From the NCBI GenBank assembly GCA_050262655.1, contig JBLNEM010000509.1, forward strand, positions 794-64,793: 64,000 nucleotides of DNA, in the 5' to 3' direction. Source of the stretch: Mycobacterium leprae (GTDB taxonomy: Bacteria; Bacillota; Sulfobacillia; Symbiobacteriales; Symbiobacteriaceae). This document shows positions 5,336-50,369 of the stretch, piece by piece. The position numbers and the translations under genes are program-made. Under the pieces are notes generated by a model. It did no database searches, was not told where the DNA came from, and was given only the letters and a program-made list of their open reading frames with translations. Each line of letters starts with the position of its first letter. Positions within the stretch are counted from its first letter, which is position 1.

Positions 5336-5358
5336 CACGCCGTCATTGCAGGGAAGGC

Positions 5359-6734: not shown

Positions 6735-6737
6735 AGT

Positions 6738-6756
6738 GACGGGCCGTTGGCCCGTC
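6738..6756 (+). terminator. GC hairpin after mreD (weak U-tract)
   Basis: GACGGGCC-gtt-GGCCCGTC lies 4 nt after the mreD stop and is followed by cttgcttgtt. Confidence 0.4.
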
Positions 6757-7069
6757 CTTGCTTGTTCACTGGCGGTGTCCCCACTGCCAGGATCCACAGC
6801 AGATTGCCATTGCAATTTCCATTGGTGGCCTACCCGGAACCCCAAACCTTGGCATCATTTGTATACCCACCAACTATCCCAATGGGATGCAAGCCCTCTG
6901 ACAGAAGTGTCGCGGGGTTGGTAATGAGAGGAAGCACGAACGGGAGAACTGGTTTTCGGCGACATTTTTGTGTAAAACGAGCAGGAGTTACGCGGCTGTG
7001 GGAGAATTTAACTCAGAGGAGAACCATACCTCGGAGTAACCAATCTGGTTACAGGGTAGTGAGCAACCC

Positions 7070-7747: not shown

Positions 7748-7788
7748 GTATGGGCGCCTGAAGCGACGGGTGCGAAGGAGGAACGTGA

Positions 7789-8595: not shown

Positions 8596-8610
8596 AAAGG
8601 GGGGCGTACC

Positions 8611-8886
8611 TTGCTGGACCTAATTGCCAAGGTATTCGGTCGCGAATCCTCAAGCGCAGATATTGCGAAGGAGCGGCTGCGGCTGGTTCTGGTGCACGAC
8701 CGGACCAACGTTTCGCCCCAATTTCTGGAGTCCCTGAAGGAAGAACTGATTGGCGTCATCTCTCGTTACATGGAGATTGACTCCGAACAGATCGAGGTGG
8801 CCTTGCAGAGCGCCGAGAATCAGGTCGCACTGGTAGCCAACATCCCCATTCGTCGGATGAAGAGGGCTGCAGTGGGCGGTCAGTAG
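8611..8886 (+). CDS. minE: Cell division topological specificity factor MinE
   Basis: A 91-aa protein with AKERLRLVLVHDR...SPQFLESLKEELIGVISRY; TTG start. Confidence 0.9.
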   Translation: MLDLIAKVFGRESSSADIAKERLRLVLVHDRTNVSPQFLESLKEELIGVISRYMEIDSEQIEVALQSAENQVALVANIPIRRMKRAAVGGQ

Positions 8887-8893
8887 TAAAGCA

Positions 8894-8927
8894 AAGAAAC
8901 CACCGGGTCACCGGTGGTTTCTTTTTT
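8894..8927 (+). terminator. Intrinsic terminator after minE
   Basis: AAAGAAACCACCGG-gtca-CCGGTGGTTTCTTT followed by a T-run. Confidence 0.75.
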
Positions 8928-9009
8928 GTTTACCCGGTATTTTCGGATGTCGTTTATAATAGTGGGGTGTGGGACAACAAGTGCGGCGGCGCGAAGAGGG
9001 GGTCGAACG

Positions 9010-10802: not shown

Positions 10803-11981
10803 CTAACGTTCTACAATCACTGTAACGCCCATGCCGCCGCCCACGCAGAGGGTTGCGAGGCCCCGACGGGCATCCTGACGGGCCATCTCATAGAGCAGGC
10901 TGATCAATATACGGGCACCGCTGGCGCCAATCGGGTGACCAAGTGCAATCGCACCGCCGTTGACGTTTACTTTGGCCGGGTCCCAACCCAACTCCTTGGT
11001 CACGGCCAGGGATTGGGCCGCAAAAGCTTCGTTTGCTTCGATCAGGTCGATATCGCCCAACTTCAGGCCCGCCTTGGTTAGTGCCTTGTGGGTGGAGGCG
11101 ACAGGGCCAATACCCATGATCTCCGGCGCGACACCGGCCGAAGCCCAACTGACCAGACGGGCCAGGGGGGTGAGGCCAAGGCTCTTCGCCTTCTCGCTGG
11201 AGGTTATGACCAGCGCCGCAGCGCCATCGTTGATACCCGAGGCATTGCCGGCCGTTACGGTACCATCCTTCTTGAAGGCGGGCTTGAGCGCCGCCAGTTT
11301 CTCGACGGTTGTGTCGGCACGGGGGTGTTCATCGCGGGTGAAGAGGACGGGGTCCCCCTTCTTCTGCGGAATACCTACGGGGACGATCTCACGCTCAAAC
11401 CGGCCGTCTTCGATGGCAGCGCGAGCTTTGGCCTGGCTCTCAGCCGCAAAGGCATCCTGTTCGCTGCGGGAGATTCCGTACTGCTCGGCCACGTTCTCTG
11501 CCGTCAGGCCCATGTGGTAGTGGTTGATCGAGCAGGTCAGGCCGTCCAGGATCATGAGGTCTTGAACCTCGCCATGCCCCATGCGATACCCGGTGCGGGC
11601 TTTGGGCAGGGTGTAGGGGGCGTTGGACATGGATTCCATTCCCCCAGCCACTACCACATCTGCGTCGCCGGCAATGATCGTTTGCGCAGCCAACAGGACC
11701 GACTTGAGCCCGGAGCCGCAGATGTTGTTGACGGTGGTGGCTGGTGCGCTGTCGGGAATGCCGGCTTTCAACGCGGCCTGGCGGGCTGGGCCCATCCCCT
11801 GTCCGGCCTGCAACACGTTACCCAGATAAACCTCGTTGACCTGCTCGGGCTGCAGTCCAGCCCGCTCAAGTGCTGCCCGAATGGCGATTGCACCAAGCTC
11901 CCAGGCCTGAAAGGATGCCAGCGACCCGCCGAACCCGCCGATGGCCGTACGGGCACCTGATGCAATGACGATCTCCTTCAT
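10803..11981 (-). CDS. Acetyl-CoA C-acetyltransferase (thiolase II)
   Basis: [12 protein letters not shown] (active-site Cys), [31 protein letters not shown]. Confidence 0.9.
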
Positions 11982-11996
11982 ACCGGAAACCTCCTC

Positions 11997-12671
11997 TTAT
12001 GCGGTCATCTCGCGCAAATCCGGGGCAATGATCAAGCGGCCGGCCGTCGCTGTTCGCACCTCATCGACCGTGATGCCAGGGGCGATCTCTTTCATCAGGA
12101 AGCCTTCCGGCGTAATCTCGAAGTAGCCCATGTCGGTGACCACCACGTCTACTTCACCCTGAGCGGTCAGGGGCAGACGGCAGCGTTCCAGCAGTTTGGG
12201 GGAACCGTCCTTGGTCACGTGCTCGGTCGCCACAAAGACTCGCTTGGCGCCTACCAGCAGGTCCATCGCGCCCCCCATTCCGGGCAGTAGTTTCCCGGGA
12301 ATCATCCAGTTGGCAATGTTACCATACTGATCTACTTCCAGGGTGCCAAGAACCGTGGCGTCGACGTGGCCGCCGCGGATAATGCCGAACGATGTGCTGG
12401 AGTCAAAGAAGCAGCCACCAGGGACGATGGTGACCGGCTGTCCACCCGCGTTGACCAGGTCGTTGTCGGCCAGACCCGGGTCGGTGGGAGCCGGACCAAG
12501 ACCGATAAACCCGTTTTCCGATTGAAGCATGACCGAGACGCCTTCCGGCAGGTAATTAGCAACCATAGTGGGCATGCCGATGCCGAGATTGACCAGGTCA
12601 CCGTTGTGGAACTCGCGGGCTATCCGTTTCACAATGAGCATACGACGCTCTTTGGCATCCACCCGAAACAC
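11997..12671 (-). CDS. scoB: 3-oxoacid / acetate CoA-transferase subunit B
   Basis: MLQSENGFIGLGP (catalytic Glu motif), GGAMDL, and its position after subunit A. Confidence 0.9.
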   Translation of the reverse strand: MFRVDAKERRMLIVKRIAREFHNGDLVNLGIGMPTMVANYLPEGVSVMLQSENGFIGLGPAPTDPGLADNDLVNAGGQPVTIVPGGCFFDSSTSFGIIRGGHVDATVLGTLEVDQYGNIANWMIPGKLLPGMGGAMDLLVGAKRVFVATEHVTKDGSPKLLERCRLPLTAQGEVDVVVTDMGYFEITPEGFLMKEIAPGITVDEVRTATAGRLIIAPDLREMTA

Positions 12672-12674
12672 CCC

Positions 12675-13322
12675 CTAAACCTTCACAAGGTAGTCGACGA
12701 AGATGCCCGGTGTCATCACCATGTCGGGATCGATGGCGCCGATCTCTACCACTTCGTTGACTTGCGCGATGACGGTATCGGCAGCCGTGGCCATCAGCGG
12801 GTTGAAGTTACGGGTTGAACGCCGGTAGACCAGGTTCCCCATCGCATCCGCAGTATGGGCCCGCAGCAACGCAACGTCGGCCTTCAGGGGCCGCTCCAAC
12901 AGGTAGGTGTGGCCGTCCAACTCCATGGTTGGCTTTCCTTCGGCTACAATCGTGCCAACACCGGTGGGCGTAAGGAATCCACCCAAACCTGAACCGGCGC
13001 AACGAATGCGCTCGGCCAGCGTGCCCTGGGGGATCAGAACCACCTGCATCGCTCCGCTGTTCATGAGCTTACCGACCTCGGGGTTGAGGCCTACGTGCGA
13101 GGCGATTAACCGCTGGACCTGCCCCCGCACGATCAGCTTGCCGACCCCTTTATCCGGGAAGCCGCCGTCATTGCAGATAATGGTCAGGTCCTTGACTCCC
13201 CGCTCTACGAGCGCATCCATGAAGAGTTCGGGGGTACCCGTTGCCATGAAGCCTCCAACCATGATCGTCATTTCGTCATGGATCAGACTCATGGCATGCT
13301 CCAGGCTGGTTACCTTGCTCAT
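12675..13322 (-). CDS. scoA: 3-oxoacid / acetate CoA-transferase subunit A
   Basis: MTIMVGGFMATGTPE...ICNDGG...VLIPQGTLAERIR.AG.GLGGFLTPTGVGT. I start it at the ATG at 13322, which is preceded by AAAGGAGG; the longer ORF (to 13436) has no support. Confidence 0.9.
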   Translation of the reverse strand: MSKVTSLEHAMSLIHDEMTIMVGGFMATGTPELFMDALVERGVKDLTIICNDGGFPDKGVGKLIVRGQVQRLIASHVGLNPEVGKLMNSGAMQVVLIPQGTLAERIRCAGSGLGGFLTPTGVGTIVAEGKPTMELDGHTYLLERPLKADVALLRAHTADAMGNLVYRRSTRNFNPLMATAADTVIAQVNEVVEIGAIDPDMVMTPGIFVDYLVKV

Positions 13323-13361
13323 GCCGGATCCTCCTTTGCTTGGCCCTCTCCAGCGAGACTG

Positions 13362-13377
13362 AGCAAGGATTATGCCA
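13362..13377 (-). promoter_or_regulatory. Sigma-54 (-24/-12) promoter for the CoA-transferase/thiolase operon
   Basis: The minus strand reads TGGCATAATCCTTGCT. GG and GC have the exact spacing of the TGGCAC-N5-TTGCA consensus. It lies about 40 nt upstream of the scoA-like ATG and directly downstream of a sigma-54-dependent activator gene. Confidence 0.65.
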
Positions 13378-13401
13378 GCCAAGCGAGGATGTAGAACGCC
13401 T

Positions 13402-13434
13402 GCGCGGTGCGGGCTGGGTTGGCCCGCACCGCGC
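13402..13434. repeat. Perfect 13-bp inverted repeat (7-nt spacer) upstream of the sigma-54 promoter
   Basis: GCGCGGTGCGGGC-tgggttg-GCCCGCACCGCGC. A second palindrome, TGCACAGGTGTGCA, lies at 13442-13455. Confidence 0.6.
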
Positions 13435-13476
13435 AAAACGATGCACAGGTGTGCAGTTCACTTCGCACCCAAAGAA

Positions 13477-13638
13477 TCACGGCTTCTTGGGGGGGACGCT
13501 GCACATGCGATTTCGGCTGCCCCTCGAGGTCAAGGGTTGCTGTCGACTTTGGAACGCTTTTGGCGGGGCTACAGAGGGATGGATCATGGTGGGGACCGCC
13601 TTAGGCTTGTCACCAGAAGCCGAAGTCTTGTGGCTCAT
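13477..13638 (-). CDS. Possible 53-aa basic Pro/Ser-rich small protein (speculative)
   Basis: The ATG is preceded by AAGAGGAGGATGACC, a strong Shine-Dalgarno with 6-nt spacing. The product would be MSHKTSASGDKPKAVPTMIHPSVAPPKAFQSRQQPLTSRGSRNRMCSVPPKKP. I recognise no family. Confidence 0.2.
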   Translation of the reverse strand: MSHKTSASGDKPKAVPTMIHPSVAPPKAFQSRQQPLTSRGSRNRMCSVPPKKP

Positions 13639-13780
13639 GGTCATCCTCCTCTTACATGCTCTGAACCACGCTGTTCCAGGCCTTGGAGAGAAAGGATCTT
13701 CGGCGCATGCCAAAATCGTTATAGTATTAGTATAAATCAACGAGCAGCCGCCCGAAAGGGGCAGCCGCTCGCCTGCTTTA

Positions 13781-15127
13781 TTATTGTTCTGAACCCAGCG
13801 CATCGGTCACTAGTCCAAGGGCTTTGAGCTTCATCTGCAGCGCCCGGCGGCTAATGCCCAGCATACGTGCCGCTTGCGTTCGGTTTCCCTTACACTCTCG
13901 CAGTGCCAGTTGAATCTGTTCCTGTTCGTAGCCAGCCTTGAGGCGGTTGACGCTGGATTTCAGCGAGGCGCCGGGCTCTTCTCGGCTCCCGCTTGTAAGT
14001 TCGGGCAGTTGTTCCACCTCTACCAGGGGGCCGTCCCACAAGACGACTACCTGCTCTACCAGGTTGCGCAACTCCCGTACGTTCCCCGGCCAGCGATATG
14101 ATGCCAGGACGGCCATCGCCTGGGGAGAGAACCCTTGAAATGCCTTGTCGTGTTCTTCGGTGAAAGTACGCAGGAAGTGGTTGAGGAGCAGGGGAATGTC
14201 GCCCGTCCGTTCTCTTAAGGGCGGCAGCTTGATCGGGACCACGGCGAGGCGGAAATAGAGGTCCTCTCTGAACGCTCCGGTCTTCACCATCTCGCGCAGA
14301 TCCCGATGTGTTGAGGCCAGCACGCGTACATCTACCGGCATGGGGCGGACCGCACCCAGAGGCTCTACGCTGTTGGTTTCCAGTACGCGTAGCAGCTTGG
14401 CTTGGAGGGAAAGCGGCATATCGCCGATCTCATCGAGCAGCAAGGTGCCACCCCTGGCAAGTTCGAAACGGCCTGGTTTGCGGCTGCCGGCACCGGTGAA
14501 AGCGCCCTTCTCGTAGCCGAAGAGCTCGCTTTCCAGGAGATTTTCTGGCACCGCTGCACAGTTGAACGCCAGGAAGGGTCTGGCCGCGCGACCGCTATGG
14601 GCATGGATCGCCCGTGCCACCAGTTCTTTGCCGGTTCCCGTCTCGCCTAGTATCAAGGTGCAGGCATCAGTTCTGGCGATGCGCTCGATTTTGCGGTAGA
14701 CCTCCAGCATGACGGTGCTGTCGCCCAGCATGCCGGCCGGACGCGGGGGCAACGGGGGCGGGGCGACGGCAAGGACTCGCTCCATTACCGACCTGACCTG
14801 GCCCAGGTCAAAGGGTTTCATGACGTAATCGGCTGCGCCGGCCTTGATTGCTTCCACCGCTGTCTGAACCGTCGCATACGCCGTCATCATGATGACCGGG
14901 AGATGGGGGTACTGCTTCTTGATCTCCCGCAGGACAGTCAGGCCATCCATGCCCGGCATGACCAGATCCAACATGACCAGGTCAGCACCCTGGCTGGCCA
15001 GGATTTGGAGTGCGTCTGAGCCGCTGCGGGCGCCTGTTACGGAGAACTCAGTGCCGAAGCCCTGGGTAAACAGCCACGCCATGTTCGGTTCGTCGTCAAC
15101 CACTAACAGGTGGGGCATTCCTGTCAC
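13781..15127 (-). CDS. Sigma-54-dependent response regulator (NtrC/AtoC family: REC + AAA+ + Fis-type HTH)
   Basis: REC domain (LLVVDDEPNM...DLVMLDLVMPGMDG), AAA+ domain (GETGTGKE, GAFTGA, ESELFGYEKGAFTGA, RVLE) and a C-terminal HTH (NRTQAARMLGISRRAL). Confidence 0.9.
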   Translation of the reverse strand: MTGMPHLLVVDDEPNMAWLFTQGFGTEFSVTGARSGSDALQILASQGADLVMLDLVMPGMDGLTVLREIKKQYPHLPVIMMTAYATVQTAVEAIKAGAADYVMKPFDLGQVRSVMERVLAVAPPPLPPRPAGMLGDSTVMLEVYRKIERIARTDACTLILGETGTGKELVARAIHAHSGRAARPFLAFNCAAVPENLLESELFGYEKGAFTGAGSRKPGRFELARGGTLLLDEIGDMPLSLQAKLLRVLETNSVEPLGAVRPMPVDVRVLASTHRDLREMVKTGAFREDLYFRLAVVPIKLPPLRERTGDIPLLLNHFLRTFTEEHDKAFQGFSPQAMAVLASYRWPGNVRELRNLVEQVVVLWDGPLVEVEQLPELTSGSREEPGASLKSSVNRLKAGYEQEQIQLALRECKGNRTQAARMLGISRRALQMKLKALGLVTDALGSEQ

Positions 15128-16851
15128 TCCTCTGAAGGCACGGGCGAGCTTGAGGCAACCGGCAGCAGAACCGTGAAGCAGGCGCCCTTACCCTGCGCCG
15201 ACTCAACTTCTACGTAGCCGCGGTGTTCGTCCACGATGCGCTGGACCACGGGGAGACCCAACCCAGTTCCGCCCGGCTTCGAGCTATAGAAGACCTCCCA
15301 GATGTTCGGCAGGTGCTCTGGATCGATGCCTCCGCCCTGATCACTCACAACCACACGCACAAAACGGCTATTGGCGGGATGCTCTGTGCGGACTGCCAGC
15401 AGCCCACCGTCTGGCATGGCCTGAACGCCATTGATCATCAGGTTGAGCAATGCCTGTTGCAGATGCTCGGCATCGCCGTGCACCCGTAGCCGTCCGGGGT
15501 GCAGATCGAGCCCTATGTCGACTCCATTCTTCTGCGCGTAGCCGCGGATAAACTCCACGGCCAACAGGACCCGCTCATTCAGATCGACCAACGCCATCTG
15601 TGGCTCCGAATAGCGGGCAAAGCCCAGGAGCCCCTGAATGGTCCTGTTCACGCGCAACAGTTCCTGACCAGCGATGTGGGATAACGACACCAAAAACTCA
15701 TGGTCCGTCAGGCGCTGCGGGATCAATTGGACCGAACCTGCGACCACGGTCAGTGGGTTGCGGATCTCGTGGGCGATTGCCACGGCCAGTTCACCGGCCA
15801 AAGCCAGGCGTTCTGCCCGCTCGAAATACTGGTCTTGCCGGCGGATGCCCTCGGTCTCTTCGAAGAGGAAGAGGTAGTATGTAGGGGTTGATGAATGGTG
15901 GACCAGAGGGGCGACCAGGACCTCGACGTCCGTTGACCGGTTGGCGCACCGAAGCGTAAGCGGAACTCTTACTCGGAGCTGCAGATCGTGGGAAGGACGG
16001 AGCCGGTCAACCTGTACCGACTCGGCTCCGAGTTGGGTGAGCAGGTCGGTCCATTTCACTCCCACGACTCCCTGCTCGGGTAGACCGGTCAGTTGGGACA
16101 TCAACCCGCCCCACAGAACGACAGAACCCGTTTCGTCTACGAGCATGACACCGGCCTGGAGGTTGTCAAGAAACAGCCGGGTGTACCGCTCGACCTGCTC
16201 CAGTGAATGGGTCAGGGAGCGAACGCTATCCTCGGCCATAAGCCCGTTCCGGCAGGCCTCGTCCAGACGGGAACGGATCGCCGCAGCGGTCAGCGTGGAC
16301 TCACTGGCCAGAAAGGCCAGGCCAGATAACCCCAATACGGTATCGAACCCGGTGGATTGACAGTTTCGGCTGTTACCCGCCTGAAGCTGGCGATAAATCT
16401 CCTCCAGCGACTCATTGGCGAACGTGAAGCCAATCACGTCACCGTGGCGGACCAACGGATGCATACAGTTTAAGGCGTCACCCCGGACCATGGAACCCAC
16501 GGCGATTCGTTCAACCCGTTCCCGCATGGCGATGCGCCCCAGATGGTCGCCCGGGGGCGTCACCCCCACGAGATAGCCCAAGGTGTGGCTTGGGGCGTAG
16601 GCGACGATTTGGTCCAAAACGACATCGTAGTAGCCCACGCCGGCACCACCGAAGGCGCTGGACACCTGCTCCGCGACTGGGGTCAGTGCGCTGCACAACC
16701 CTTGCAAGCGGCCGGTGGCGCCCATTGGCAGCCACTGATCATAACCGTCACCCAGCATCTGGTCTAGCATCCGGGCCAGCCCCATCAGTTTGGCAGCCTT
16801 TTCATCTAGCAAAACCGATTCAGCCCGCTGTATAATCGCTGGGCGCCACAT
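15124..16851 (-). CDS. Cytoplasmic sensor histidine kinase (AtoS-like: N-terminal sensor + PAS + HisKA + HATPase_c)
   Basis: H-box AIAHEIRNPL, N-box LLNLMINGVQA, G-boxes DQGGGI and GGTGLGL. I see no obvious TM helix. It has a 4-nt overlap with the regulator gene. Confidence 0.85.
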   Translation of the reverse strand: MWRPAIIQRAESVLLDEKAAKLMGLARMLDQMLGDGYDQWLPMGATGRLQGLCSALTPVAEQVSSAFGGAGVGYYDVVLDQIVAYAPSHTLGYLVGVTPPGDHLGRIAMRERVERIAVGSMVRGDALNCMHPLVRHGDVIGFTFANESLEEIYRQLQAGNSRNCQSTGFDTVLGLSGLAFLASESTLTAAAIRSRLDEACRNGLMAEDSVRSLTHSLEQVERYTRLFLDNLQAGVMLVDETGSVVLWGGLMSQLTGLPEQGVVGVKWTDLLTQLGAESVQVDRLRPSHDLQLRVRVPLTLRCANRSTDVEVLVAPLVHHSSTPTYYLFLFEETEGIRRQDQYFERAERLALAGELAVAIAHEIRNPLTVVAGSVQLIPQRLTDHEFLVSLSHIAGQELLRVNRTIQGLLGFARYSEPQMALVDLNERVLLAVEFIRGYAQKNGVDIGLDLHPGRLRVHGDAEHLQQALLNLMINGVQAMPDGGLLAVRTEHPANSRFVRVVVSDQGGGIDPEHLPNIWEVFYSSKPGGTGLGLPVVQRIVDEHRGYVEVESAQGKGACFTVLLPVASSSPVPSEE

Positions 16852-24344: not shown

Positions 24345-26249
24345 TTATTCGGGAACTTCTTCGATCAGCGCTTCGTATTCGATGCCACCGATTGTGAGGC
24401 GGAGGACTCTAGCGGCCTTCTGGACCGGAGCGGAGTCGGGTTCTGAGAGTGCGGCCGCTGCAATGGGCGTCGTTCCAGTGGACTGGTTTGCTCCCGCTGT
24501 CTGGGCCATGCGCTCTTTGATCTGTCTGGCCAAATCCTGCTGGGCCTTATCCGATGGGCGATTGGTCTCGCGCTCGAGGTAGCGGCGAATTTGGGCCAAC
24601 CGCCGGCGCTCGGACCAGACGATCGAGGTGGCCTCTGCCAGGTCAATCTCCTGGAACCTGATGCGGTCTCCTGGCCGCAATTGAGCGGCCCTGGCCAAGT
24701 CCGAGTAGACCGCCACCGCAATTTGGGCGTAGCCGCCAGTGGTCTGACGGTTCCCCATGAGCAAGATGGGCTGTCCACTGGCCGGGACCTGTATGCTACC
24801 GGGCGCTACGGGTTCCGAGAGAATACCAGCGGGCGCTTGGAGCCTGGGGCCGTCCATTCGAAGCCCCTGACGGTCAGACTTGGCGCCAACCGCATACGTT
24901 GAGCCGAAGAAGGCTGCCTTTGCCTCCGGCGTGAAGGAGTCAGCCTGAGGCCCGCGCAGGACCCGGACGGTTAGCTCGCCCGGGAACGTGGGGATCGTAT
25001 CGGCCGGGAGCGAGCGACCAGCCAGATTGGCCGGCGGATGCAGGGGCAGGCCCACCGGCAGCCAGTCCCCTGTCTTCAGTGGCCGGCCCAGCGGGCCGAT
25101 CTTGCCAAAGAGATCCTCGGACAGACTGCCGAGGATCAGCGGCAGATCGAAGCCGCCAGCAACGCACAGATAGCTGCGGCAGCCAGTGGTGGCGGTGCCG
25201 GTACGCAACCGGTCGCCAGGTCCGGCCAACAGAGCGGTCCAGCCGGGAACGGGCTGCGGAGCAGAGCCGTCAGCCGGGATCAGCTCCGCGGGGAGCGGAG
25301 CACCAGTAAGGCAGAACGCAACGGGACCGGTAAACTCCATATCGGGGCCACTTATGGTCATATCCAGGGCACTGGTACGTGCTCGGATGACCAGTAGCCA
25401 GTTTCCCGCCATGAGGGACAGGTAGTCGGCGGCCCCGGCCACCGTCACGCCGCAGGACATGTGGCCCCTACGGCCCAGGTCCTGAATCGTGGTGAGCAGG
25501 CCCGGCTGGAGGACACGCAACCCGGTACGGCCTTCCTTCCATTCAGGCAGTGCCGGCGCTTTTCGGGGCTGCTCCTGCGCCTGGAATTGCTCGGGTGTAA
25601 TCGGCACGAAGCGGATGCTATCGCCGGGTTCTACCATGGCGGGAGCGGTGGCTTCAGGGTCAAATAGGTGGGCCGGCGTCCGGCCAATGAGTTGCCATCC
25701 GCCCGGCGAAGGTGCGGGATATACGCCTGTCTGGTTTCCGGCAATGCCAACGCTGCCGCCGGGCACAGAGACACGCGGATCTGCCAGTCGGGGTGTGGCG
25801 ATCGCCGGATCCAGTCCGCCGAGGTATGGAAAGCCGGGACTGAAGCCAAGACAATAGACCCGGTAGGTTGGGGCGGTATGCCGCTGAATCACTTCGGTCG
25901 CGCTCATATGAGCATGCTCCGCCACCGCAATCAGGTCGGGGCCCATTTCGCCACCATAGCAGACGGGGATTTCAACCGTTCTAGGTGGGACGGATTCTGT
26001 CGGCGCGAAAAGGCATTTGCGGACAATCTCCTGCAGTTGGTCGAGACGAATGCGCACCGGATCGTACTCAACGAGCAGGCAGTGGTACGAACTGGTGATC
26101 TCGATGATGGCCGGGTGGCGGTTTGCCCCGATGGCCCGGGCCAAATCCAGTACGGCTCTATTCACCGCCGGGTCAATTCCCTCACCCAGATAGATCATCA
26201 AGGCGCGATCGCCGCAGGGTACAAAGCGCAGTTGGTCGCTCAGCTTCAT
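24345..26249 (-). CDS. Fused 5-oxoprolinase subunits PxpB-PxpC (allophanate hydrolase subunit 1 + 2, KipI-KipA type) with an extra C-terminal tail of about 90 aa
   Basis: The N-terminal half is KipI/AHS1-like (FVPCGDRALMIYLGEGIDP...YRVYCLGFSPGFPYLGGLD...VGIAGNQTGVYP). The second half is KipA/AHS2-like (LRVLQPGLLTTIQDLGRRGH...GPQAD.F...GTPSGGYAQ-like TTGGYAQIAVV). The tail ends ...VLRLTIGGIEYEALIEEVPE. Confidence 0.8.
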   Translation of the reverse strand: MKLSDQLRFVPCGDRALMIYLGEGIDPAVNRAVLDLARAIGANRHPAIIEITSSYHCLLVEYDPVRIRLDQLQEIVRKCLFAPTESVPPRTVEIPVCYGGEMGPDLIAVAEHAHMSATEVIQRHTAPTYRVYCLGFSPGFPYLGGLDPAIATPRLADPRVSVPGGSVGIAGNQTGVYPAPSPGGWQLIGRTPAHLFDPEATAPAMVEPGDSIRFVPITPEQFQAQEQPRKAPALPEWKEGRTGLRVLQPGLLTTIQDLGRRGHMSCGVTVAGAADYLSLMAGNWLLVIRARTSALDMTISGPDMEFTGPVAFCLTGAPLPAELIPADGSAPQPVPGWTALLAGPGDRLRTGTATTGCRSYLCVAGGFDLPLILGSLSEDLFGKIGPLGRPLKTGDWLPVGLPLHPPANLAGRSLPADTIPTFPGELTVRVLRGPQADSFTPEAKAAFFGSTYAVGAKSDRQGLRMDGPRLQAPAGILSEPVAPGSIQVPASGQPILLMGNRQTTGGYAQIAVAVYSDLARAAQLRPGDRIRFQEIDLAEATSIVWSERRRLAQIRRYLERETNRPSDKAQQDLARQIKERMAQTAGANQSTGTTPIAAAALSEPDSAPVQKAARVLRLTIGGIEYEALIEEVPE

Positions 26250-26761
26250 CAGCCTCCGTTGTGCTGCCAATGCGAAGCTATCTTTTTGCTTCTTCTATTG
26301 TAACACGAGACTCCGCTGGATAGCGGCATTGATTTTAATAGCTGGTACTATATCCTGCTACAAAAACAGCTGGGCCATCCGGTCGCTGTCTCAGCTCGGG
26401 GTGGCCCAGCTAATTTCCTTTGTCCAACCAGACCTTGGGCAAACAAAAATGATGATAAGTCAGATTTCTGAGGATGCTGAACCACTCATAACAGACGACT
26501 GAATTTGCGAAGCGTAGTTATCATCTTGTTAGGCATTTGGTGTCATTCGGTGTTAGTTCGACCGTTTCTGTGTCTCTGGTAACCAGCCGAATCCCTTACA
26601 GGGGAGCGGCTCCTTTCCGGATACCACTACGGGGTACCCCATCATTACAGTCTGTCCGTGATGCCAGGCGTAGCATTGGCGAGTAAATCAAAGAAAACGA
26701 CGGGAAAATGCCTGTTTCCGCCTCAGTTGCACAACCGTGTGTGGTTGGTTCCTTAGAAACC

Positions 26762-26804
26762 TGAGAGTAATATGTGTGTAACATGAGAGTAAGATGAGAG
26801 TAAG
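26762..26804 (+). repeat. Three phased direct repeats TGAGAGTAA (ATGAGAGTAAG x2 in tandem plus one copy 22 bp upstream)
   Basis: Copies lie at 26762-26770, 26784-26792 and 26795-26803. The offsets of 22 and 11 bp put all three on the same helical face. They are about 185-225 bp upstream of the cytochrome operon start codon. Confidence 0.7.
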
Positions 26805-26914
26805 GTACATAAGGTTAGGACCTAAACGACTCCAACTTACCATTATGCATCAGATTCTTGACCCGGCAGCACAATTCGCGCCGCGGGGCGCAGGGACGAC
26901 GAAGCAAGACGGTT

Positions 26915-26930
26915 TGTGAGATTGCTCACA
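26915..26930. promoter_or_regulatory. Perfect CRP/FNR-family palindrome TGTGA-N6-TCACA
   Basis: TGTGAGATTGCTCACA is centred about 64 bp upstream of the ATG at 26987. It is the only such box I found in the window. Confidence 0.6.
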
Positions 26931-26986
26931 TAAGCGGCGTCAATCCATTACCCAATAGCAGCCTTAAGGTGGAGGAGGGCACCGGA

Positions 26987-27727
26987 ATGAACCTGAAACG
27001 ACCCGCCCGTAGAAGCTTAACGGCACTCCTCGGCGGGATCCTCCTGGTAGTGGTCGGGCTGGCGGTTAACGCACAGACGGCTGCAGCGGAGACAATTGAC
27101 AAGCAACTGGCGAACCCGTCCGATCCGGACGGGAATGCGGCGTGTCTGGCGTGTCACAGCCAGGCGCAGGAGATGGTCCGGGACGGCAATCACATATCGG
27201 TGCAGGTCGATCCGAACACTTACAACAACTCGGTACATGGCATCATCTCTTGTGTTCGATGCCATGCCGAGGTGGGCGAGGATCACGCCAAGAACCCCGC
27301 CAAACCTCTGAATCTGCCCACCGGACGAGACCTCAGGGTTCTCAAGTCTGAGGGGTGCATCAAGTGCCATGGGGGCAAGTACCCAGAAAGCTACAATCTC
27401 AGTTTCCATGGCGTCGCCGTCAGCAGCGGCGATAACCGTGCCGCTACTTGCGTGGACTGCCATGGCGTACACAACATTCTACCGTCACGCAACCCGGCGT
27501 CGCAGGTAGCGTCGGCCAATCTGGCGCAAACGTGCGGCACGACTGGGTGCCACCAGAATGTGCCGGCCAACTTTGCGAACGGCACGGAGCATTTTGTGGC
27601 GGCCAAACCTGAGGCCGGCGGCCTCAATATCATCTACAAGTTGTTTATGGGGCTGATCTGCTTCGACGCCATGAAGGATGGGCCGATTGTTATGTTCGAC
27701 CTGCTCAGGCGTCTGCGTCGGCACTAG
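26987..27727 (+). CDS. Exported pentahaem c-type cytochrome (cytochrome c3-like)
   Basis: The ATG at 26987 follows AAGGTGGAGGAGG. Signal/anchor MNLKRPARRSLTALLGGILLVVVGLAVNAQTAAA. Haem motifs are CLACH, CVRCH, CIKCH, CVDCH plus the CX4CH motif CGTTGCH. It ends in a hydrophobic/amphipathic C-terminus. Confidence 0.85.
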   Translation: MNLKRPARRSLTALLGGILLVVVGLAVNAQTAAAETIDKQLANPSDPDGNAACLACHSQAQEMVRDGNHISVQVDPNTYNNSVHGIISCVRCHAEVGEDHAKNPAKPLNLPTGRDLRVLKSEGCIKCHGGKYPESYNLSFHGVAVSSGDNRAATCVDCHGVHNILPSRNPASQVASANLAQTCGTTGCHQNVPANFANGTEHFVAAKPEAGGLNIIYKLFMGLICFDAMKDGPIVMFDLLRRLRRH

Positions 27728-27740
27728 GGGGTGTAGTGAA

Positions 27741-28580
27741 GTGAGTAATAACAAAGCGGTTTATTACCAGCGATGGAATCTGCAGCACCGCCTGCAGCAT
27801 ATCTCCCTGGTGATTTCGATGATCGGGCTGCTCTGGACTGGCATGGCAATGAAGTTCTATACCGAAGCCTGGGCTAAAGGGACCTTCCGGATCTTCACGG
27901 GCTTCCATGGCACACTGATTGTGCACAAGATTTCGGCCGCCCTGCTAATCCTGGTCTCTGTCTGGCATCTGTCTTACCTGCTCACCTACCTGGCCAAACA
28001 CGGCGTGAAGGAGGCAGGGCCCAGGAGTTGGGCTATGCTCCCGGGTTTGAAGGACTTCATTGACGCCAAGGACCATGCGTTATACCTGCTCAAGCTCTCG
28101 GACAAGCCGCCGCAATATGACCGCTACAGCTACCTTGAGAAGTTCGAATACCTGTCGATTTTCTGGGGCATGGCGGCGATGGGGCTCTCCGGTGCTGCAT
28201 TGTGGTTCCCCGAGGTGGCAGCCCAGTGGATTCCCCGCTCCTGGCTGGATGGGCTAAGGCTCATTCACACCAACGAGGCGCTGGTCGCCTTGATCGCTCT
28301 CGCCTATGGCCATCTGTTTACGGCTCACTTCAACCCAATCTTCTTCCCACAGAACTCCATGTATTTGACTGGCAAGATCTCGCTGGAACACATGCTGGAG
28401 GAGCATCCCGCTGAATATGCACGCCTGGCAAGCAAGGGCGACCTGCCCGCTATGGCCGGCAGCAGTCACGAGCATGGACTGACGGGCTGGCGGTGGGGGC
28501 TGGGTGCCGTTGAGCTGATCATCTACTCGGCAGTGTTCTACTACCTGTTGTACACGTTCATTCCGAAACTACTGGCATAA
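27741..28580 (+). CDS. Membrane di-haem cytochrome b (FdnI/HydC, Ni_hydr_CYTB-like)
   Basis: The GTG at 27741 follows AGGGGGTG. The sequence YQRWNLQHRLQHISLVISMIGLLWTGMAM leads four to five TM helices with conserved His residues (HKISAALL, SVWHLSY, LIHTNEA). Confidence 0.8.
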   Translation: MSNNKAVYYQRWNLQHRLQHISLVISMIGLLWTGMAMKFYTEAWAKGTFRIFTGFHGTLIVHKISAALLILVSVWHLSYLLTYLAKHGVKEAGPRSWAMLPGLKDFIDAKDHALYLLKLSDKPPQYDRYSYLEKFEYLSIFWGMAAMGLSGAALWFPEVAAQWIPRSWLDGLRLIHTNEALVALIALAYGHLFTAHFNPIFFPQNSMYLTGKISLEHMLEEHPAEYARLASKGDLPAMAGSSHEHGLTGWRWGLGAVELIIYSAVFYYLLYTFIPKLLA

Positions 28581-28593
28581 GGGGGGAGGCTCC

Positions 28594-30456
28594 TTGAAGC
28601 GCAAGATTAACTGGGCAATTCCGGGCCTCCTGGGCATCGTGCTGTTTATCGCCGCCATGGTGTTCATGCAGCGAGGCGCTACTGCTCTGACCAACCCGAC
28701 GGCCGCCGCATCGGAGTGTGCGGCATGCCACAACATGGAGCAGCAGGTATCCTCCTGGGAGCATTCGGCTCACAAGGATGCTGCTTGCACCACTTGTCAT
28801 ACTGACCCCGGCGTAAAGGGCTGGTTGGAGGTTAAGCTGGGCGAGCGCCAGATGAAGGCAGCCCTGGATAAGGGCTCTGCCGAGGGGCAAGTCACAGCCA
28901 TCACCAAGGAAGTGCCCAACGAACGCTGCATCTCCTGCCACGCCAAGCAGATGCCTTGGGTCATGCAGGACTTACAGCCGCCCAAACTTGATGGCAATGG
29001 CGAGCCCGTCCGGGTGGCCAACTCAGCGTTGGAGTTCCTGCCTGGCATTGCCGGACACGATGTACACCTGACCGCAGAGCAGCCGCTGAAGTGCGTGGAT
29101 TGCCACTTCGATGCTACCCATGGTCCGGCTGACAAGGCGCAGCAGGTGGCCGATATGCACCAGGCCTGCCTGGACTGCCACGCCAAGGAGAAAGTGGCGC
29201 TAACGGTCAAGAATACGGTTTCGTGCTCTGCCTGCCATAACGACTTGGCGAAGGTAGCCCCGGATGATCATAAGAACAATGCCTTCCGGGAGAGCCACGG
29301 CAAGATTGCTGCGACCCAGCCGGAGACCTGCCAGAACTGCCATCTCAACCCCGGCCTTGGGGCCAAGGCAGCAGACAGTGGCACCACAGTTCATCCGGTC
29401 GTTCAAACAACCGTCTCCGGAGCAGCGGAAAGCCAGGTTCAGTTCAATGTTCAGTTCCCGCCTGGAACGCTTAACGTGCCGCCGGACATGACGGACGCAT
29501 GTGCTTCGTGCCACGGCACGACCATGCCGCACCCGAAGGACTGGCTGAAGGACCACGCGACGGGTTATCAGGAGAAACCGGAGATGTGTGCCTCCTGCCA
29601 CGGCACCACAACCCAGGGCTTCGATATGAAGGTGACGGGCAACCCCCGCACCCTCTCCACCACCGATCCTACCTGTACGAGCTGTCATGCGCAACCGATG
29701 CCTCACCCGGCCGATTGGCTGACGGGTGGACACCAGAACGCGGCTACGGCTGCACCGCAGACTTGTGACCAGTGCCACTCGGCCAAGAACCCGGCTCATC
29801 CGAATGCCGATTATGCATCGCCGCAATACTGCCTGAACTGCCACCTGGGCAAGTACAGTCATCCGCTGAACTGGCTCGACCAGCACCGGTTCTCGCTGCA
29901 GTCCTATGGCGGTGACCAGACGAAGGCCGGCTGCACGCAGTGTCACACGGCGACCACCAACAGTTGCACGTCCTGCCATACCAACGGTGTCGGCAACCAG
30001 CAGCAGTGGCATCCCAGCGACTTCGTCGCCACCCACAAGGATCAACTGGCTTCGTACGGGGACAACCCAACGGCAGCCGGCTGCACCAGTTGCCACACGG
30101 TGACCGGCAGTGGGTTCAACAGCTGCGTCACTTGCCACACCAACGGGATTGAAAGCAAAGAATGGCATCCGGCGGAGTTCATCGCCACGCACAAGGACCA
30201 GTTGGCAGCCGTGAATGATGACCCGCAGGCTGCTGGCTGCACCAAGTGCCACACGACCAGCAACACGGCCAAGACCAGCTTCAACAGCTGCACGGCCTGC
30301 CACACCGATGGTCTGAATGTGGCCACGCAGTGGCATCCGGATAATTGGTGGATCGCTCACGCCTACCAGGTGAACGATAGCAACAAGGCCAGCTGCTACT
30401 CCTGCCACGACTACGTCCAGCCTGCCTGCACGAAGTGCCATGTTAACAAGCCGTAG
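28594..30456 (+). CDS. Membrane-anchored 20-haem c-type cytochrome with a NapC/NirT/NrfH-like N-terminal module
   Basis: One N-terminal TM helix. The first motif, CAACHNM, is the CxxCHxM hallmark of the NrfH/NapC family. I counted 20 CxxCH motifs in 620 aa. Confidence 0.9.
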   Translation: MKRKINWAIPGLLGIVLFIAAMVFMQRGATALTNPTAAASECAACHNMEQQVSSWEHSAHKDAACTTCHTDPGVKGWLEVKLGERQMKAALDKGSAEGQVTAITKEVPNERCISCHAKQMPWVMQDLQPPKLDGNGEPVRVANSALEFLPGIAGHDVHLTAEQPLKCVDCHFDATHGPADKAQQVADMHQACLDCHAKEKVALTVKNTVSCSACHNDLAKVAPDDHKNNAFRESHGKIAATQPETCQNCHLNPGLGAKAADSGTTVHPVVQTTVSGAAESQVQFNVQFPPGTLNVPPDMTDACASCHGTTMPHPKDWLKDHATGYQEKPEMCASCHGTTTQGFDMKVTGNPRTLSTTDPTCTSCHAQPMPHPADWLTGGHQNAATAAPQTCDQCHSAKNPAHPNADYASPQYCLNCHLGKYSHPLNWLDQHRFSLQSYGGDQTKAGCTQCHTATTNSCTSCHTNGVGNQQQWHPSDFVATHKDQLASYGDNPTAAGCTSCHTVTGSGFNSCVTCHTNGIESKEWHPAEFIATHKDQLAAVNDDPQAAGCTKCHTTSNTAKTSFNSCTACHTDGLNVATQWHPDNWWIAHAYQVNDSNKASCYSCHDYVQPACTKCHVNKP

Positions 30457-30483: not shown

Positions 30484-30513
30484 AAACCCCCGGGTGAATT
30501 CACCCGGGGGTTT
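30484..30513. terminator. Bidirectional intrinsic terminator (cytochrome operon / lgt)
   Basis: Perfect palindrome AAACCCCCGGGTGAATTCACCCGGGGGTTT. Confidence 0.8.
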
Positions 30514-50297: not shown

Positions 50298-50369
50298 GGG
50301 GTCAGTATACCGAAAGGAGTTGTCATAACCGCTGGGCACGTCCATAGACATGGCCTTGGAGGGATGGCC

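What the first reader, a model, noticed from the sequence alone, without database searches (positions are those of the whole stretch)
26987..30456. Compact multihaem cytochrome c / cytochrome b module with a 20-haem NrfH-fused cytochrome and no adjacent catalytic reductase, in a spore-forming monoderm
Counted directly from the translations:
- Gene 1 (26987-27727) is an exported cytochrome with 4 CxxCH motifs plus one cytochrome-c3-type CX4CH (CGTTGCH).
- Gene 2 (27741-28580) is a 4-5 TM, His-rich FdnI/HydC-type cytochrome b.
- Gene 3 (28594-30456) has one N-terminal TM helix and opens with CAACHNM, the CxxCHxM signature of NapC/NirT/NrfH quinol dehydrogenases. It carries 20 CxxCH motifs in 620 aa, roughly one haem per 31 residues, which is a wire-like density.

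The genes are 13 nt apart. They share one long control region and end at a perfect bidirectional terminator.

The cluster therefore holds two different quinol-interacting modules side by side: cytochrome b plus a c-type partner, and an NrfH-like module. There is no NrfA, molybdoenzyme, Fe-S subunit or other terminal reductase next to them.

By analogy only, Geobacter CbcL combines a c-type domain with a HydC-type b domain, and ImcH is a NapC/NirT-family protein. Both feed extracellular electron transfer.

In a monoderm cell the 20-haem protein would project from the membrane into the wall zone. That makes this a candidate uncharacterised respiratory or extracellular electron conduit.
Basis: partly seen in the sequence, partly recalled or inferred. 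Interest (0 to 1): 0.85.

Follow-up and report, generated by a model that had tools for sequence, protein, structure and literature searches.

The report
Quinol-to-wall multihaem cytochrome operon
This three-gene operon of a Symbiobacterium-like bacterium most likely takes electrons from membrane quinol and passes them outward along a 20-haem protein, a new variant of the electron-export chains known from Gram-positive metal reducers; here the usual end-enzyme gene is missing from the locus.

Summary
There are three tightly packed genes:
- g1, a pentahaem cytochrome c (4 CxxCH plus CGTTGCH).
- g2, a cytochrome b with the FdnI fold.
- g3, a single-helix-anchored cytochrome with 20 CxxCH motifs that opens with CxxCHxM.

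The operon ends at a perfect 30-nt palindrome.

The triad is a conserved, syntenic operon of Symbiobacteriaceae-type Bacillota, including the cultured Caldinitratiruptor microaerophilus. In 9 of 11 distinct loci it sits beside one or two genes for a nonahaem cytochrome. That protein is homologous to OcwA (PDB 6I5B, E 1e-53), the characterised cell-surface terminal reductase of Thermincola. So "no adjacent reductase" describes this genome (and one other locus), not the system.

g3 is a distant homologue of NrfH and of the Thermincola decahaems ImdcA and PdcA. It is lengthened by dihaem repeats; family members carry 14 to 24 haems, always an even number. g1 plus g2 have the same build as Geobacter CbcBA.

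Two conserved upstream elements, one of them TGTGA-N6-TCACA, point to regulated expression.

Verdict: an uncharacterised new variant of the Gram-positive multihaem electron-export pathway. The acceptor, the direction of flow and the function without OcwA remain inferred. Interest is moderate, about 0.55.

The parts
26744..26773 (+). Conserved upstream block GTTGGTTCCTTAGAAACCTGAGAGTAATAT. It is promoter-like (TTGGTT, 17 nt, TAATAT) and contains the near-palindrome GGTTYC-N3-GAAACC.
   Evidence: An alignment of 330 nt upstream of g1 from 11 loci shows about 30 nt almost invariant in 10 of them, the exception being Caldinitratiruptor. The consensus promoter scanner did not call it, because the -35 matches only 3 of 6.
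26762..26803 (+). Three exact copies of TGAGAGTAA (26762, 26784, 26795). The first belongs to the conserved block.
   Evidence: These are the only exact copies in the 64 kb window. A second, weaker copy is also present in relatives.
26915..26930 (+). Palindrome TGTGAG-ATTG-CTCACA (TGTGA-N6-TCACA), 57-72 nt upstream of the g1 start. It is a candidate operator of the Rex or CRP/FNR type.
   Evidence: It is conserved as TTGTGAA-N4-TTCAC(A) in most of the aligned upstream regions. The assignment to a regulator family rests on consensus sequences recalled from memory and was not tested.
26987..27727 (+). g1: exported pentahaem cytochrome c with a signal peptide, 4 CxxCH plus CX4CH, and a very conserved C-terminal hydrophobic segment, KxFMxLIxFDxxKDGPIVMFELLRRL.
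   Evidence: All five haem motifs and the C-terminal segment are invariant in 10 orthologues. Similarity to NrfB and c3/c7 families is weak.
27741..28580 (+). g2: FdnI-type dihaem cytochrome b with 5 transmembrane helices.
   Evidence: PF01292 at 50.4 bits. Invariant H20, H62, H176, H191 and H196 across 14 and 42 homologues. AlphaFold2 pLDDT 85, pTM 0.75. Foldseek finds a unique significant hit to 1KQF_C.
28594..30456 (+). g3: membrane-anchored 20-haem cytochrome c. It has an NrfH/ImdcA-like N-terminal module (about aa 1-250), a low-complexity linker (about aa 255-300), and C-terminal dihaem repeats (about aa 430-620).
30484..30513 (.). Perfect 30-nt palindromic hairpin between the convergent g3 and lgt. 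It resembles a bidirectional terminator.

Best explanation
The three genes encode one membrane-bound module that exports electrons.

- g2 is a dihaem cytochrome b with the FdnI fold. g1 is a pentahaem cytochrome c held at the membrane by its conserved C-terminal helix. Together they form a bc-type menaquinol:cytochrome c oxidoreductase built like Geobacter CbcBA.
- g3 is anchored by one N-terminal helix and starts with an NrfH/ImdcA-type module (CxxCHxM at haem 1). This gives a second contact with the quinol pool or with g1.
- g3 then continues as a chain of bis-His haems. A flexible linker and dihaem repeats lengthen it so that it projects from the membrane into the wall zone.
- In most relatives the chain delivers electrons to OcwA-like nonahaem cytochromes encoded next door. 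These are homologues of the Thermincola cell-surface terminal reductase, and some carry S-layer-homology domains.
- In this genome that gene is not in the locus. The acceptor protein is therefore either encoded elsewhere or g3 itself does the job.
- Expression is probably controlled through two conserved upstream operator-like palindromes.

Shown here: gene anatomy, haem-motif and His conservation, the FdnI fold of g2, homology of g3 to NrfH, ImdcA and PdcA, and conserved synteny with OcwA homologues.

Inferred: quinol oxidation, outward direction of flow, physical association of the three proteins, wall-spanning geometry, and the nature of the final acceptor.
For: - **Anatomy.**
- **g2.** Pfam PF01292 is above cutoff. 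Five His are invariant across Bacillota, Armatimonadota, Actinomycetes and Planctomycetia copies. FdnI is the only significant structural match.
- **g1.** It has a signal peptide, five invariant haem sites and an invariant C-terminal hydrophobic segment. CbcA is likewise a multihaem c with a C-terminal anchor, encoded just upstream of the dihaem CbcB (bioRxiv 10.1101/2021.04.15.440034).
- **g3 N-terminus.** NCBIfam NrfH gives E 3.6e-13 over aa 13-120. The family profile matches NrfH 2J7A_C at E 3.9e-11. The top three Foldseek hits are NrfH, though not significant.
- **g3 and Thermincola.** BLASTP to ImdcA gives E 1e-14 over g3 15-420, and to PdcA E 2e-15.
- **g3 haem ligands.** There are 22 non-motif His for 20 haems.
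- **Conservation.** The triad is syntenic between pxpBC and lgt-arsR-PDH in MAGs and in Caldinitratiruptor.
- **Neighbouring reductase.** OcwA-like genes are adjacent in 9 of 11 loci, with E 1.4e-53 to 6I5B. 6I5B is OcwA, a characterised cell-surface reductase (PMC6703420).
- **Surface anchoring.** Symbiobacteriia have OcwA-like variants carrying SLH domains.
- **Wider distribution.** Analogous triads of a 7-haem c, a cytochrome b and an NNT-type multihaem protein occur in other phyla.
- **Regulation.** Upstream elements are conserved.
Against: - No OcwA-like gene or remnant exists anywhere in the 64 kb window, so the proposed end of the chain is missing here.
- Curated thresholds for NrfH (49.7 against 134.2 bits) and for Cytochrom_NNT (21.1 against 24.1 bits) are not reached.
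- The AlphaFold2 model of g3 is poor (pLDDT 61, pTM 0.28). A continuous haem chain and an extended shape are therefore not demonstrated.
- OcwA also reduces nitrite and hydroxylamine, and PGAP names the neighbours 'nitrite reductase c552'. A soluble acceptor is therefore not excluded.
- There are no expression data, no cytochrome c maturation genes in the window, and no report of metal or electrode respiration in this clade.
Confidence: 0.6

Rival explanations
1. The module supplies electrons for a soluble-substrate respiratory or detoxifying reductase. Here g3 (NrfH-like) and g1 (NrfB-like) feed an NrfA-superfamily enzyme, the OcwA-like nonahaem protein, which reduces nitrite, hydroxylamine or sulfur oxyanions in the wall or periplasm-like space. 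It would not serve extracellular solids.
For: - The OcwA-like neighbours hit Pfam Cytochrom_C552 (25-37 bits against a cutoff of 24.1), and PGAP names them nitrite reductase c552.
- OcwA itself turns over nitrite and hydroxylamine (PMC6703420).
- g1 and g3 have their best curated hits to NrfB and NrfH.
- Caldinitratiruptor has a sulfite-oxidase-type Mo enzyme plus a cupredoxin directly upstream. L043 has a DMSO-reductase-family enzyme next to lgt.
- OcwA/OmhA relatives are discussed as related to octahaem sulfite and tetrathionate reductases (PMC10376724).
Against: - OcwA's nitrite turnover is very slow, with kcat about 1 per minute.
- The neighbours have 9 CxxCH and no CxxCK active-site motif.
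- A wire of 14 to 24 haems is unnecessary to reach a soluble enzyme docked at the membrane; NrfH does this with 4 haems.
- Some family members carry S-layer-homology domains, which indicates surface display.
- The window has no such enzyme at all.
Confidence: 0.2
2. The same hardware runs inward. Electrons are taken up from extracellular donors such as Fe(II), reduced humics, a cathode or a partner cell. They pass through g3 and g1 into the FdnI-type cytochrome b, which reduces menaquinone at the cytoplasmic side as in formate dehydrogenase-N.
For: - g2's only structural relative, FdnI, works in the quinone-reducing direction (direction from established knowledge of Fdn-N, Jormakka 2002).
- Related Gram-positive OmhA/OcwA-type and quinol-oxidase-type cytochromes are expressed during Fe(II) oxidation in Dethiobacter (PMC10376724).
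- Caldinitratiruptor is a microaerophile and nitrate reducer, which could use such electrons (title of PMC9933637).
Against: - Nothing in the sequence fixes the direction of flow.
- The characterised homologues (OcwA, ImdcA, PdcA, CbcBA) are all described in the outward direction.
Confidence: 0.1
3. In this particular genome the triad is an orphan left behind after loss of the OcwA-like gene. It is no longer functional, or is on its way to decay.
For: - The flanking OcwA-like genes seen in 9 of 11 loci are absent, with only 65 nt between g3 and lgt.
- The window's g3 is at most 55% identical to any known homologue.
Against: - All three ORFs are intact.
- All 25 haem motifs, the invariant His residues, the ribosome-binding sites, both conserved upstream elements and the terminator hairpin are retained.
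- No pseudogene remnant exists.
- An independent lineage, L042, has the same OcwA-less arrangement. This argues for a viable configuration.
Confidence: 0.07

Closest known systems
Thermincola extracellular electron transfer chain ImdcA - PdcA - CwcA - OcwA (T. potens / T. ferriacetica)
   Same: - g3 aligns with ImdcA (E 1e-14) and PdcA (E 2e-15), with the first four haem motifs in register.
- The neighbouring gene in relatives is a clear OcwA homologue (E 1.4e-53 to 6I5B).
- Both systems occur in spore-forming Gram-positive Bacillota.
   Different: - g3 has 20 haems in one membrane-anchored chain, instead of separate 10-, 10- and 6-haem proteins.
- An FdnI-type cytochrome b plus a pentahaem c are co-transcribed. 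The Thermincola papers read here do not describe such a pair as part of the proposed chain.
- ImdcA has CxxCHxxM, not CxxCHxM.
- In this window OcwA is absent.
Geobacter sulfurreducens CbcBA (and, more loosely, CbcL and ImcH)
   Same: - The build matches g1 plus g2: a multihaem c with a C-terminal membrane anchor, encoded immediately upstream of a separate dihaem b-type quinone oxidoreductase.
- ImcH is NapC/NirT-like, as is the N-terminus of g3.
   Different: - CbcA has 7 haems and g1 has 5. The more distant triads found here do have 7.
- No sigma-54 promoter is present upstream.
- Sequence homology to GSU0593/0594 could not be tested.
- In Geobacter the b-type and NapC-type oxidoreductases are separate, differently regulated loci. 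Here both types share one operon.
NrfH / NapC / NirT / CymA tetrahaem quinol dehydrogenases
   Same: - There is a single N-terminal helix, and the first four CxxCH fall within about 170 residues.
- CxxCHxM at haem 1 is invariant.
- The profile-to-sequence match to D. vulgaris NrfH gives E 3.9e-11.
   Different: - Sixteen further haems are fused to it.
- Curated model thresholds are not reached.
- No NrfA partner is present.
- The acidic residue that aligns with NrfH Asp89 is not conserved.
E. coli formate dehydrogenase-N gamma subunit FdnI (PDB 1KQF chain C)
   Same: - The fold is the same four-helix dihaem cytochrome b fold (TM 0.63/0.79).
- The pattern of conserved His is one in TM1, one in TM2 and two or three in TM4.
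- The partner subunit has a C-terminal helix. This is FdnH in Fdn-N (from knowledge) and g1 here.
   Different: - The partner is a multihaem cytochrome c, not an Fe-S/molybdopterin dehydrogenase.
- There is an extra fifth helix.
- The PGAP name 'formate dehydrogenase subunit gamma' is therefore misleading.
Carboxydothermus ferrireducens 20-haem 'putative Q-oxidase' (Ga0395992_02_135863_137242) next to the secreted octahaem SmhA
   Same: - It is a 20-haem cytochrome with a NapC/NrfH-type membrane-anchor domain.
- It has been proposed to oxidise quinol for Gram-positive extracellular electron transfer.
- It is adjacent to a secreted multihaem cytochrome and is related to TherJR_1117/ImdcA (PMC7829351).
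   Different: - It is 459 aa against 620 aa here.
- The paper reports no co-encoded cytochrome b or pentahaem pair.
- Homology to g3 could not be tested directly, and no Carboxydothermus hit appeared.

Membership tests
NapC/NirT/NrfH quinol dehydrogenases (g3 N-terminus) | Single N-terminal transmembrane helix followed by a tetrahaem c domain | tested here: met
   Hydrophobic helix at aa 7-25. CxxCH at 42, 65, 112 and 167.
NapC/NirT/NrfH quinol dehydrogenases (g3 N-terminus) | CxxCHxM at the first haem (NrfH-type Met ligation) | tested here: met
   C42, C45, H46 and M48 are invariant in 40 aligned homologues. They align with the CHIM of D. vulgaris NrfH.
NapC/NirT/NrfH quinol dehydrogenases (g3 N-terminus) | Score above the curated family thresholds (Pfam PF03264; NCBIfam TIGR03153) | tested here: not met
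   PF03264 scores 21.1 bits against 24.1. TIGR03153 scores 49.7 against 134.2. Homology is nonetheless supported by the family profile against 2J7A_C, E 3.9e-11.
NapC/NirT/NrfH quinol dehydrogenases (g3 N-terminus) | Fold similarity to NrfH | tested here: inconclusive
   The top three Foldseek hits are NrfH chains (TM to target 0.51), but E is 2.4-4.6 and the model is poor at pLDDT 61.
NapC/NirT/NrfH quinol dehydrogenases (g3 N-terminus) | Menaquinol dehydrogenase activity; cognate reductase partner (NrfA, NapAB and the like) | not testable with these tools
   No NrfA or Nap gene is in the window. Activity needs biochemistry.
FdnI/HydC-type dihaem cytochrome b (g2) | Pfam PF01292 above the gathering threshold | tested here: met
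   50.4 bits against 30.1.
FdnI/HydC-type dihaem cytochrome b (g2) | Four-helix bundle fold of FdnI | tested here: met
   AlphaFold2 pLDDT 85. Foldseek to 1KQF_C gives E 3.1e-5, probability 1.00, TM 0.63/0.79. It is the only hit below E 1e-3.
FdnI/HydC-type dihaem cytochrome b (g2) | Four conserved His able to ligate two b haems | tested here: met
   H20, H62, H176, H191 and H196 are invariant in 42 homologues.
FdnI/HydC-type dihaem cytochrome b (g2) | Partner is a formate dehydrogenase or [NiFe] hydrogenase | tested here: not met
   The flanking genes are multihaem cytochromes c in all loci. The formate dehydrogenase gamma equivalog TIGR01583 scores 24.8 against 115.85 bits.
CbcBA-type bc quinone oxidoreductase (g1 + g2) | Multihaem c with a C-terminal membrane anchor, encoded next to a separate dihaem b | tested here: met
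   g1 has a conserved C-terminal hydrophobic segment. g2 is as described above.
CbcBA-type bc quinone oxidoreductase (g1 + g2) | Sequence homology to GSU0594/GSU0593; seven haems; sigma-54-dependent promoter | tested here: not met
   g1 has 5 haems, not 7. No TGGCAC-N5-TTGC match with up to 2 mismatches lies in 26271-26986. Homology itself was not tested, because no Geobacter sequences were available.
Thermincola ImdcA/PdcA decahaem family (g3) | Detectable sequence homology over the haem domain | tested here: met
   BLASTP gives E 1e-14 (g3 15-420 against ImdcA 21-344) and E 2e-15 against PdcA. The Thermincola sequences came from the PMC7911101 supplement and are OCR text with a few gaps.
Thermincola ImdcA/PdcA decahaem family (g3) | Ten haems, about 350 aa | tested here: not met
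   g3 has 20 haems in 620 aa.
OcwA-type nonahaem terminal reductase | An OcwA homologue encoded in the locus | tested here: not met
   tblastn of three OcwA-like proteins against the whole window gives only cross-hits to g1 and g3 haem motifs. The gene is present in 9 of 11 related loci.

The most novel reading that the evidence does not exclude
The triad is a self-sufficient conduit. Three claims follow.

- In genomes without an OcwA gene (this window, L042), the membrane-anchored g3 is itself the wall-spanning wire and the terminal reductase.
- Its reach is tuned in evolution by adding or removing dihaem repeat units, which gives 14 to 24 haems.
- The two different quinol sites in one operon are functionally coupled. 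One is NrfH-type at the outer face. The other is FdnI-type with a cytoplasmic-side site. They would work either as a Q-loop that sets how much energy is conserved per electron, or as a built-in switch between high- and low-potential acceptors. Geobacter achieves such switching with three separate loci.
Probability: 0.15. Interest if true: 0.85.

Novelty: new variant of a known kind. Interest (0 to 1): 0.55.

Why it matters
How respiratory electrons cross the wall of Gram-positive bacteria is known from only two thermophile models, Thermincola and Carboxydothermus, and mostly by inference.

This operon offers a simpler layout that can be dissected genetically:
- a bc-type quinol module;
- one anchored cytochrome of 14 to 24 haems;
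- an OcwA-type end enzyme, which is usually but not always present.

It occurs in a different, little-studied clade, Symbiobacteriaceae, where the papers searched here describe no multihaem respiration. That clade has cultured members: Caldinitratiruptor microaerophilus carries the triad and Symbiobacterium terraclitae carries an OcwA homologue.

The operon also shows that PGAP names such as 'formate dehydrogenase gamma', 'nitrite reductase c552' and 'hypothetical' hide a coherent electron-export system.

If the two quinol modules prove to be coupled, the operon would bear on how cells match energy conservation to acceptor potential.

Tried and rejected
- **OcwA remnant in the window.** I looked for a remnant or second copy of the OcwA-like gene anywhere in the window by tblastn and found none.
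- **OcwA elsewhere in the source MAG.** I tried to learn whether the source MAG (g3 = MGE5676107.1, locus tag ACM3XM_19890) encodes OcwA elsewhere. I searched the OcwA-like profile and then read cluster members for accession neighbours. This was a dead end, because most NCBI hits carry no accession or locus tag.
- **Structure of g3.** AlphaFold2 with 40 homologues gave pLDDT 61 and pTM 0.28, too poor to judge a haem chain. The Foldseek hits to NrfH are only suggestive.
- **Direct PDB sequence searches.** g3 and g2 alone found nothing useful. The g1 hits to designed repeat proteins are artefacts of its C-terminal segment.
- **Geobacter CbcB among g2 homologues.** The top 120 hits are unnamed metagenome proteins, so the question stays open.
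- **Rfam on the locus.** Only sub-threshold chance hits appeared (SNORD109A, His leader), and I rejected them.
- **Sigma-54 promoter, by analogy with cbcBA.** There is no match in the control region.
- **Literature.** Searches for Symbiobacteriaceae or Symbiobacterium together with multihaem cytochromes returned nothing.
- **Maturation and sporulation genes.** No cytochrome c maturation genes were found in the window. The only sporulation marker is a spoIVFA/FB-like peptidase pair.

Full report
**1.
  - g1 (26987-27727, 246 aa) has four CxxCH plus CGTTGCH.
  - g2 (27741-28580, 279 aa, GTG start) has no cysteine and 14 histidines.
  - g3 (28594-30456, 620 aa, TTG start) has exactly 20 CxxCH. 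All 40 cysteines lie inside motifs, there are 22 additional histidines, and the first motif is CAACHNM.
- Both intergenic gaps are 13 nt, each with a G-rich ribosome-binding site.
- Only these two c-type ORFs in the whole 64 kb carry more than one CxxCH.
- The operon is bounded upstream by a 716-nt non-coding region.
- Downstream, a perfect 30-nt palindrome (30484-30513) sits between the convergent g3 and lgt. It folds far better than shuffles (-36.2 kcal/mol, z -4.2). Its T-tract is too short for the consensus scanner.
- The flanks are a pxpB-pxpC fusion, lgt, an ArsR-family regulator and a 2-oxoacid dehydrogenase operon. No reductase gene lies next to the cluster.

**2. What the three proteins are.**
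- g2 passes the Pfam threshold for PF01292.
  - With 42 homologues it gives a confident AlphaFold2 model (pLDDT 85, pTM 0.75).
  - The only significant PDB match of that model is FdnI, the dihaem cytochrome b of E. coli formate dehydrogenase-N (1KQF_C, E 3e-5, TM 0.63/0.79).
  - Five histidines are invariant across homologues from four phyla.
  - The model has a fifth, C-terminal helix that FdnI lacks.
- g1 has a signal peptide and five haem sites that are invariant in ten orthologues.
  - It also has a strikingly conserved C-terminal hydrophobic segment.
  - A multihaem c with a C-terminal anchor, encoded just before a separate dihaem b, is the described build of Geobacter CbcBA.
- g3 has one N-terminal helix.
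  - Its N-terminal third is NrfH-like. NCBIfam NrfH gives E 3.6e-13 but scores below the equivalog cutoff. The family profile matches D. vulgaris NrfH at E 3.9e-11 with CxxCHxM in register. C42, C45, H46 and M48 are invariant in 40 homologues.
  - I took the Thermincola ferriacetica ImdcA and PdcA sequences from a paper's supplement. g3 aligns with both, at E 1e-14 and 2e-15, over its first 370-420 residues.
  - After a variable low-complexity linker (about aa 255-300) come repeated dihaem units of roughly 50 residues.
  - Across the family the haem count is 14, 16, 18, 20, 22 or 24. Apart from one full-length 19-motif member (P0004) and a 13-motif fragment, it is always even. This fits gain and loss of dihaem units.
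  - The AlphaFold2 model of g3 itself is poor (pLDDT 61), so the wire geometry is inferred, not shown.

**3. Related loci change the picture.**
- g3 has about 38 close homologues. Almost all come from Symbiobacteriaceae or 'Bacillota' MAGs, plus the cultured Caldinitratiruptor microaerophilus.
- An exhaustive phmmer scan of 1.84 billion representatives finds only 19 clusters at E of 1e-30 or better. The family is small.
- In every locus with enough sequence the g1-g2-g3 order is kept. It usually lies in the same place, between pxpBC and lgt-arsR-PDH.
- In 9 of 11 distinct loci, one or two genes for a cytochrome of about 495-530 aa with nine CxxCH lie directly downstream of g3 and/or about 450 nt upstream of g1.
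  - One locus (L043) has triad, nonahaem gene, triad in tandem.
  - That protein matches PDB 6I5B at E 1.4e-53 over its whole length.
  - 6I5B is OcwA, the nonahaem cell-surface terminal reductase of Thermincola potens. OcwA reduces iron oxides and shuttles and, slowly, nitrite and hydroxylamine (PMC6703420).
  - Several Symbiobacteriia homologues carry an S-layer-homology domain.
- The window has no such gene and no remnant of one. One other lineage (L042) shows the same OcwA-less arrangement.
- Looser triads (a 7-haem c, then a cytochrome b, then an NNT-type multihaem protein) recur in Armatimonadota, Actinomycetes and Planctomycetia MAGs.

**4. Control region.**
- I aligned 330 nt upstream of g1 from eleven loci. 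Two conserved elements appear in all loci except Caldinitratiruptor.
- The first is a block of about 30 nt (window 26744-26773).
  - It has a promoter-like TTGGTT-17-TAATAT.
  - It also holds the near-palindrome GGTTYC-N3-GAAACC.
- The second is the palindrome TGTGAG-ATTG-CTCACA (26915-26930), 57-72 nt before the start codon.
  - It matches the TGTGA-N6-TCACA consensus of Rex and CRP/FNR-type operators.
  - That consensus is recalled from my own knowledge, and no binding was tested.
- In the window the TGAGAGTAA core of the first block occurs three times.
- There is no sigma-54-type promoter, unlike cbcBA.

**5. Most likely mechanism (confidence about 0.6).**
- g2 plus g1 form a CbcBA-like bc-type menaquinol:cytochrome c oxidoreductase.
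- g3 is an ImdcA/NrfH-type anchored cytochrome. Its extended haem chain carries electrons away from the membrane through the wall zone.
- In most relatives OcwA-like proteins take the electrons at the end of the chain.
- Shown: anatomy, conservation, the fold of g2, the homologies, and synteny.
- Inferred: quinol oxidation, direction, complex formation, geometry, and acceptor.
- Rivals:
  - a supply line for an NrfA-superfamily enzyme acting on soluble nitrogen or sulfur oxyanions (0.2);
  - inward electron uptake with FdnI-like quinone reduction (0.1);
  - an orphan remnant in this genome (0.07). Intact motifs, intact regulatory elements and the independent L042 case argue against this.

**6. 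Comparison with what is known, and novelty.**
- The parts belong to known kinds: NrfH/NapC-type, FdnI-type, ImdcA/PdcA-type and OcwA-type.
- A 20-haem putative quinol oxidase has already been proposed in Carboxydothermus ferrireducens (PMC7829351).
- New here is the fixed combination of four things in one operon:
  - a CbcBA-like pair;
  - an NrfH/ImdcA-like cytochrome lengthened by dihaem repeats;
  - usual linkage to OcwA homologues;
  - occurrence in a clade for which the searched literature reports no multihaem respiration.
- I rate it a new variant of a known kind, with interest about 0.55.
- The most novel reading not excluded has probability about 0.15. In it, g3 alone is wire and terminal reductase where OcwA is absent, and the two quinol sites are functionally coupled.

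**7. Limits.**
- I could not determine whether the source MAG has OcwA-like or cytochrome c maturation genes elsewhere.
- I could not determine whether the cell is strictly monoderm.
- I could not determine whether the operon is expressed.

Noticed in passing
window 26744-26773 and 26915-26930; the same elements upstream of g1 in L004, L006, L007, L009, L010, L011, L042, L043: Two non-coding elements are conserved across genera whose proteins are only 50-65% identical. One is a 30-nt promoter-like block containing GGTTYC-N3-GAAACC. The other is a TGTGA-N6-TCACA palindrome of the Rex or CRP/FNR operator type. Both are absent upstream of the Caldinitratiruptor copy.
   Followed up: partly
g3 family proteins P0001-P0038; window 29884-30453 for the repeats: Haem counts in the g3 family are 14, 16, 18, 20, 22 or 24, and almost always even. 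The exceptions are one 19-motif member (P0004) and a fragment. The count varies through insertion or loss of dihaem units of about 50 residues (GCTxCH...NSCTxCHTxG...WHP...H). More distant NapC-fused relatives reach 25-32 haems.
   Followed up: partly
L043:1045-9683 and 10828-14632: This locus has a tandem duplication of the whole triad with one OcwA-like gene between the copies. After lgt comes a DMSO-reductase-family molybdoenzyme with Fe-S and DmsC-type subunits.
   Followed up: no
L003:4363-8015 (Caldinitratiruptor microaerophilus AP025628): A sulfite-oxidase-type molybdoenzyme (Oxidored_molyb + Mo-co_dimer) and a cupredoxin lie directly upstream of the triad. A CitA/DcuS-like sensor kinase and a response regulator precede them. 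This may point to a different donor or acceptor in that species.
   Followed up: no
L004:14490-16043 and L013:9866-11416: The same Symbiobacteriaceae MAG has additional 18-haem paralogues that pass the NapC/NirT Pfam threshold (PF03264, 51.9 bits). One lies just beyond lgt. This indicates a multigene family of anchored long cytochromes.
   Followed up: no
P0132, P0141, P0142, P0144: These are OcwA-like proteins of 645 aa in Symbiobacteriia with an S-layer-homology domain (PF00395). This parallels the surface cytochrome OmhA of Carboxydothermus.
   Followed up: no
window 28594-30456 and 27741-28580 (database records P0001, P0214): The source collection labels the MAG's proteins '[Mycobacterium leprae]', which is clearly wrong for this 60% GC Symbiobacteriaceae-like contig. 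PGAP names g2 'formate dehydrogenase subunit gamma' and g3 'hypothetical protein'.
   Followed up: no
window 13363-13377 (-), 13781-16851 (-): A sigma-54 activator and a PAS histidine kinase lie next to a near-consensus -24/-12 element (TGGCATAATCCTTGC). The element sits near the 5' end of the CoA-transferase ORF (12675-13436, minus strand) of the CoA-transferase/thiolase operon. This is unrelated to the cytochrome operon.
   Followed up: no
window 50364-52153: An M23 peptidase followed by an M50 peptidase resembles spoIVFA/spoIVFB. This is the only sporulation-type marker I found in the window. mreBC, minCD and rodA lie at 4322-10152.
   Followed up: no
window 24345-26270 (-): This is a single 641-aa ORF that fuses the 5-oxoprolinase subunits PxpB and PxpC. 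The fusion is conserved at the same position in relatives (59-64% identity).
   Followed up: no
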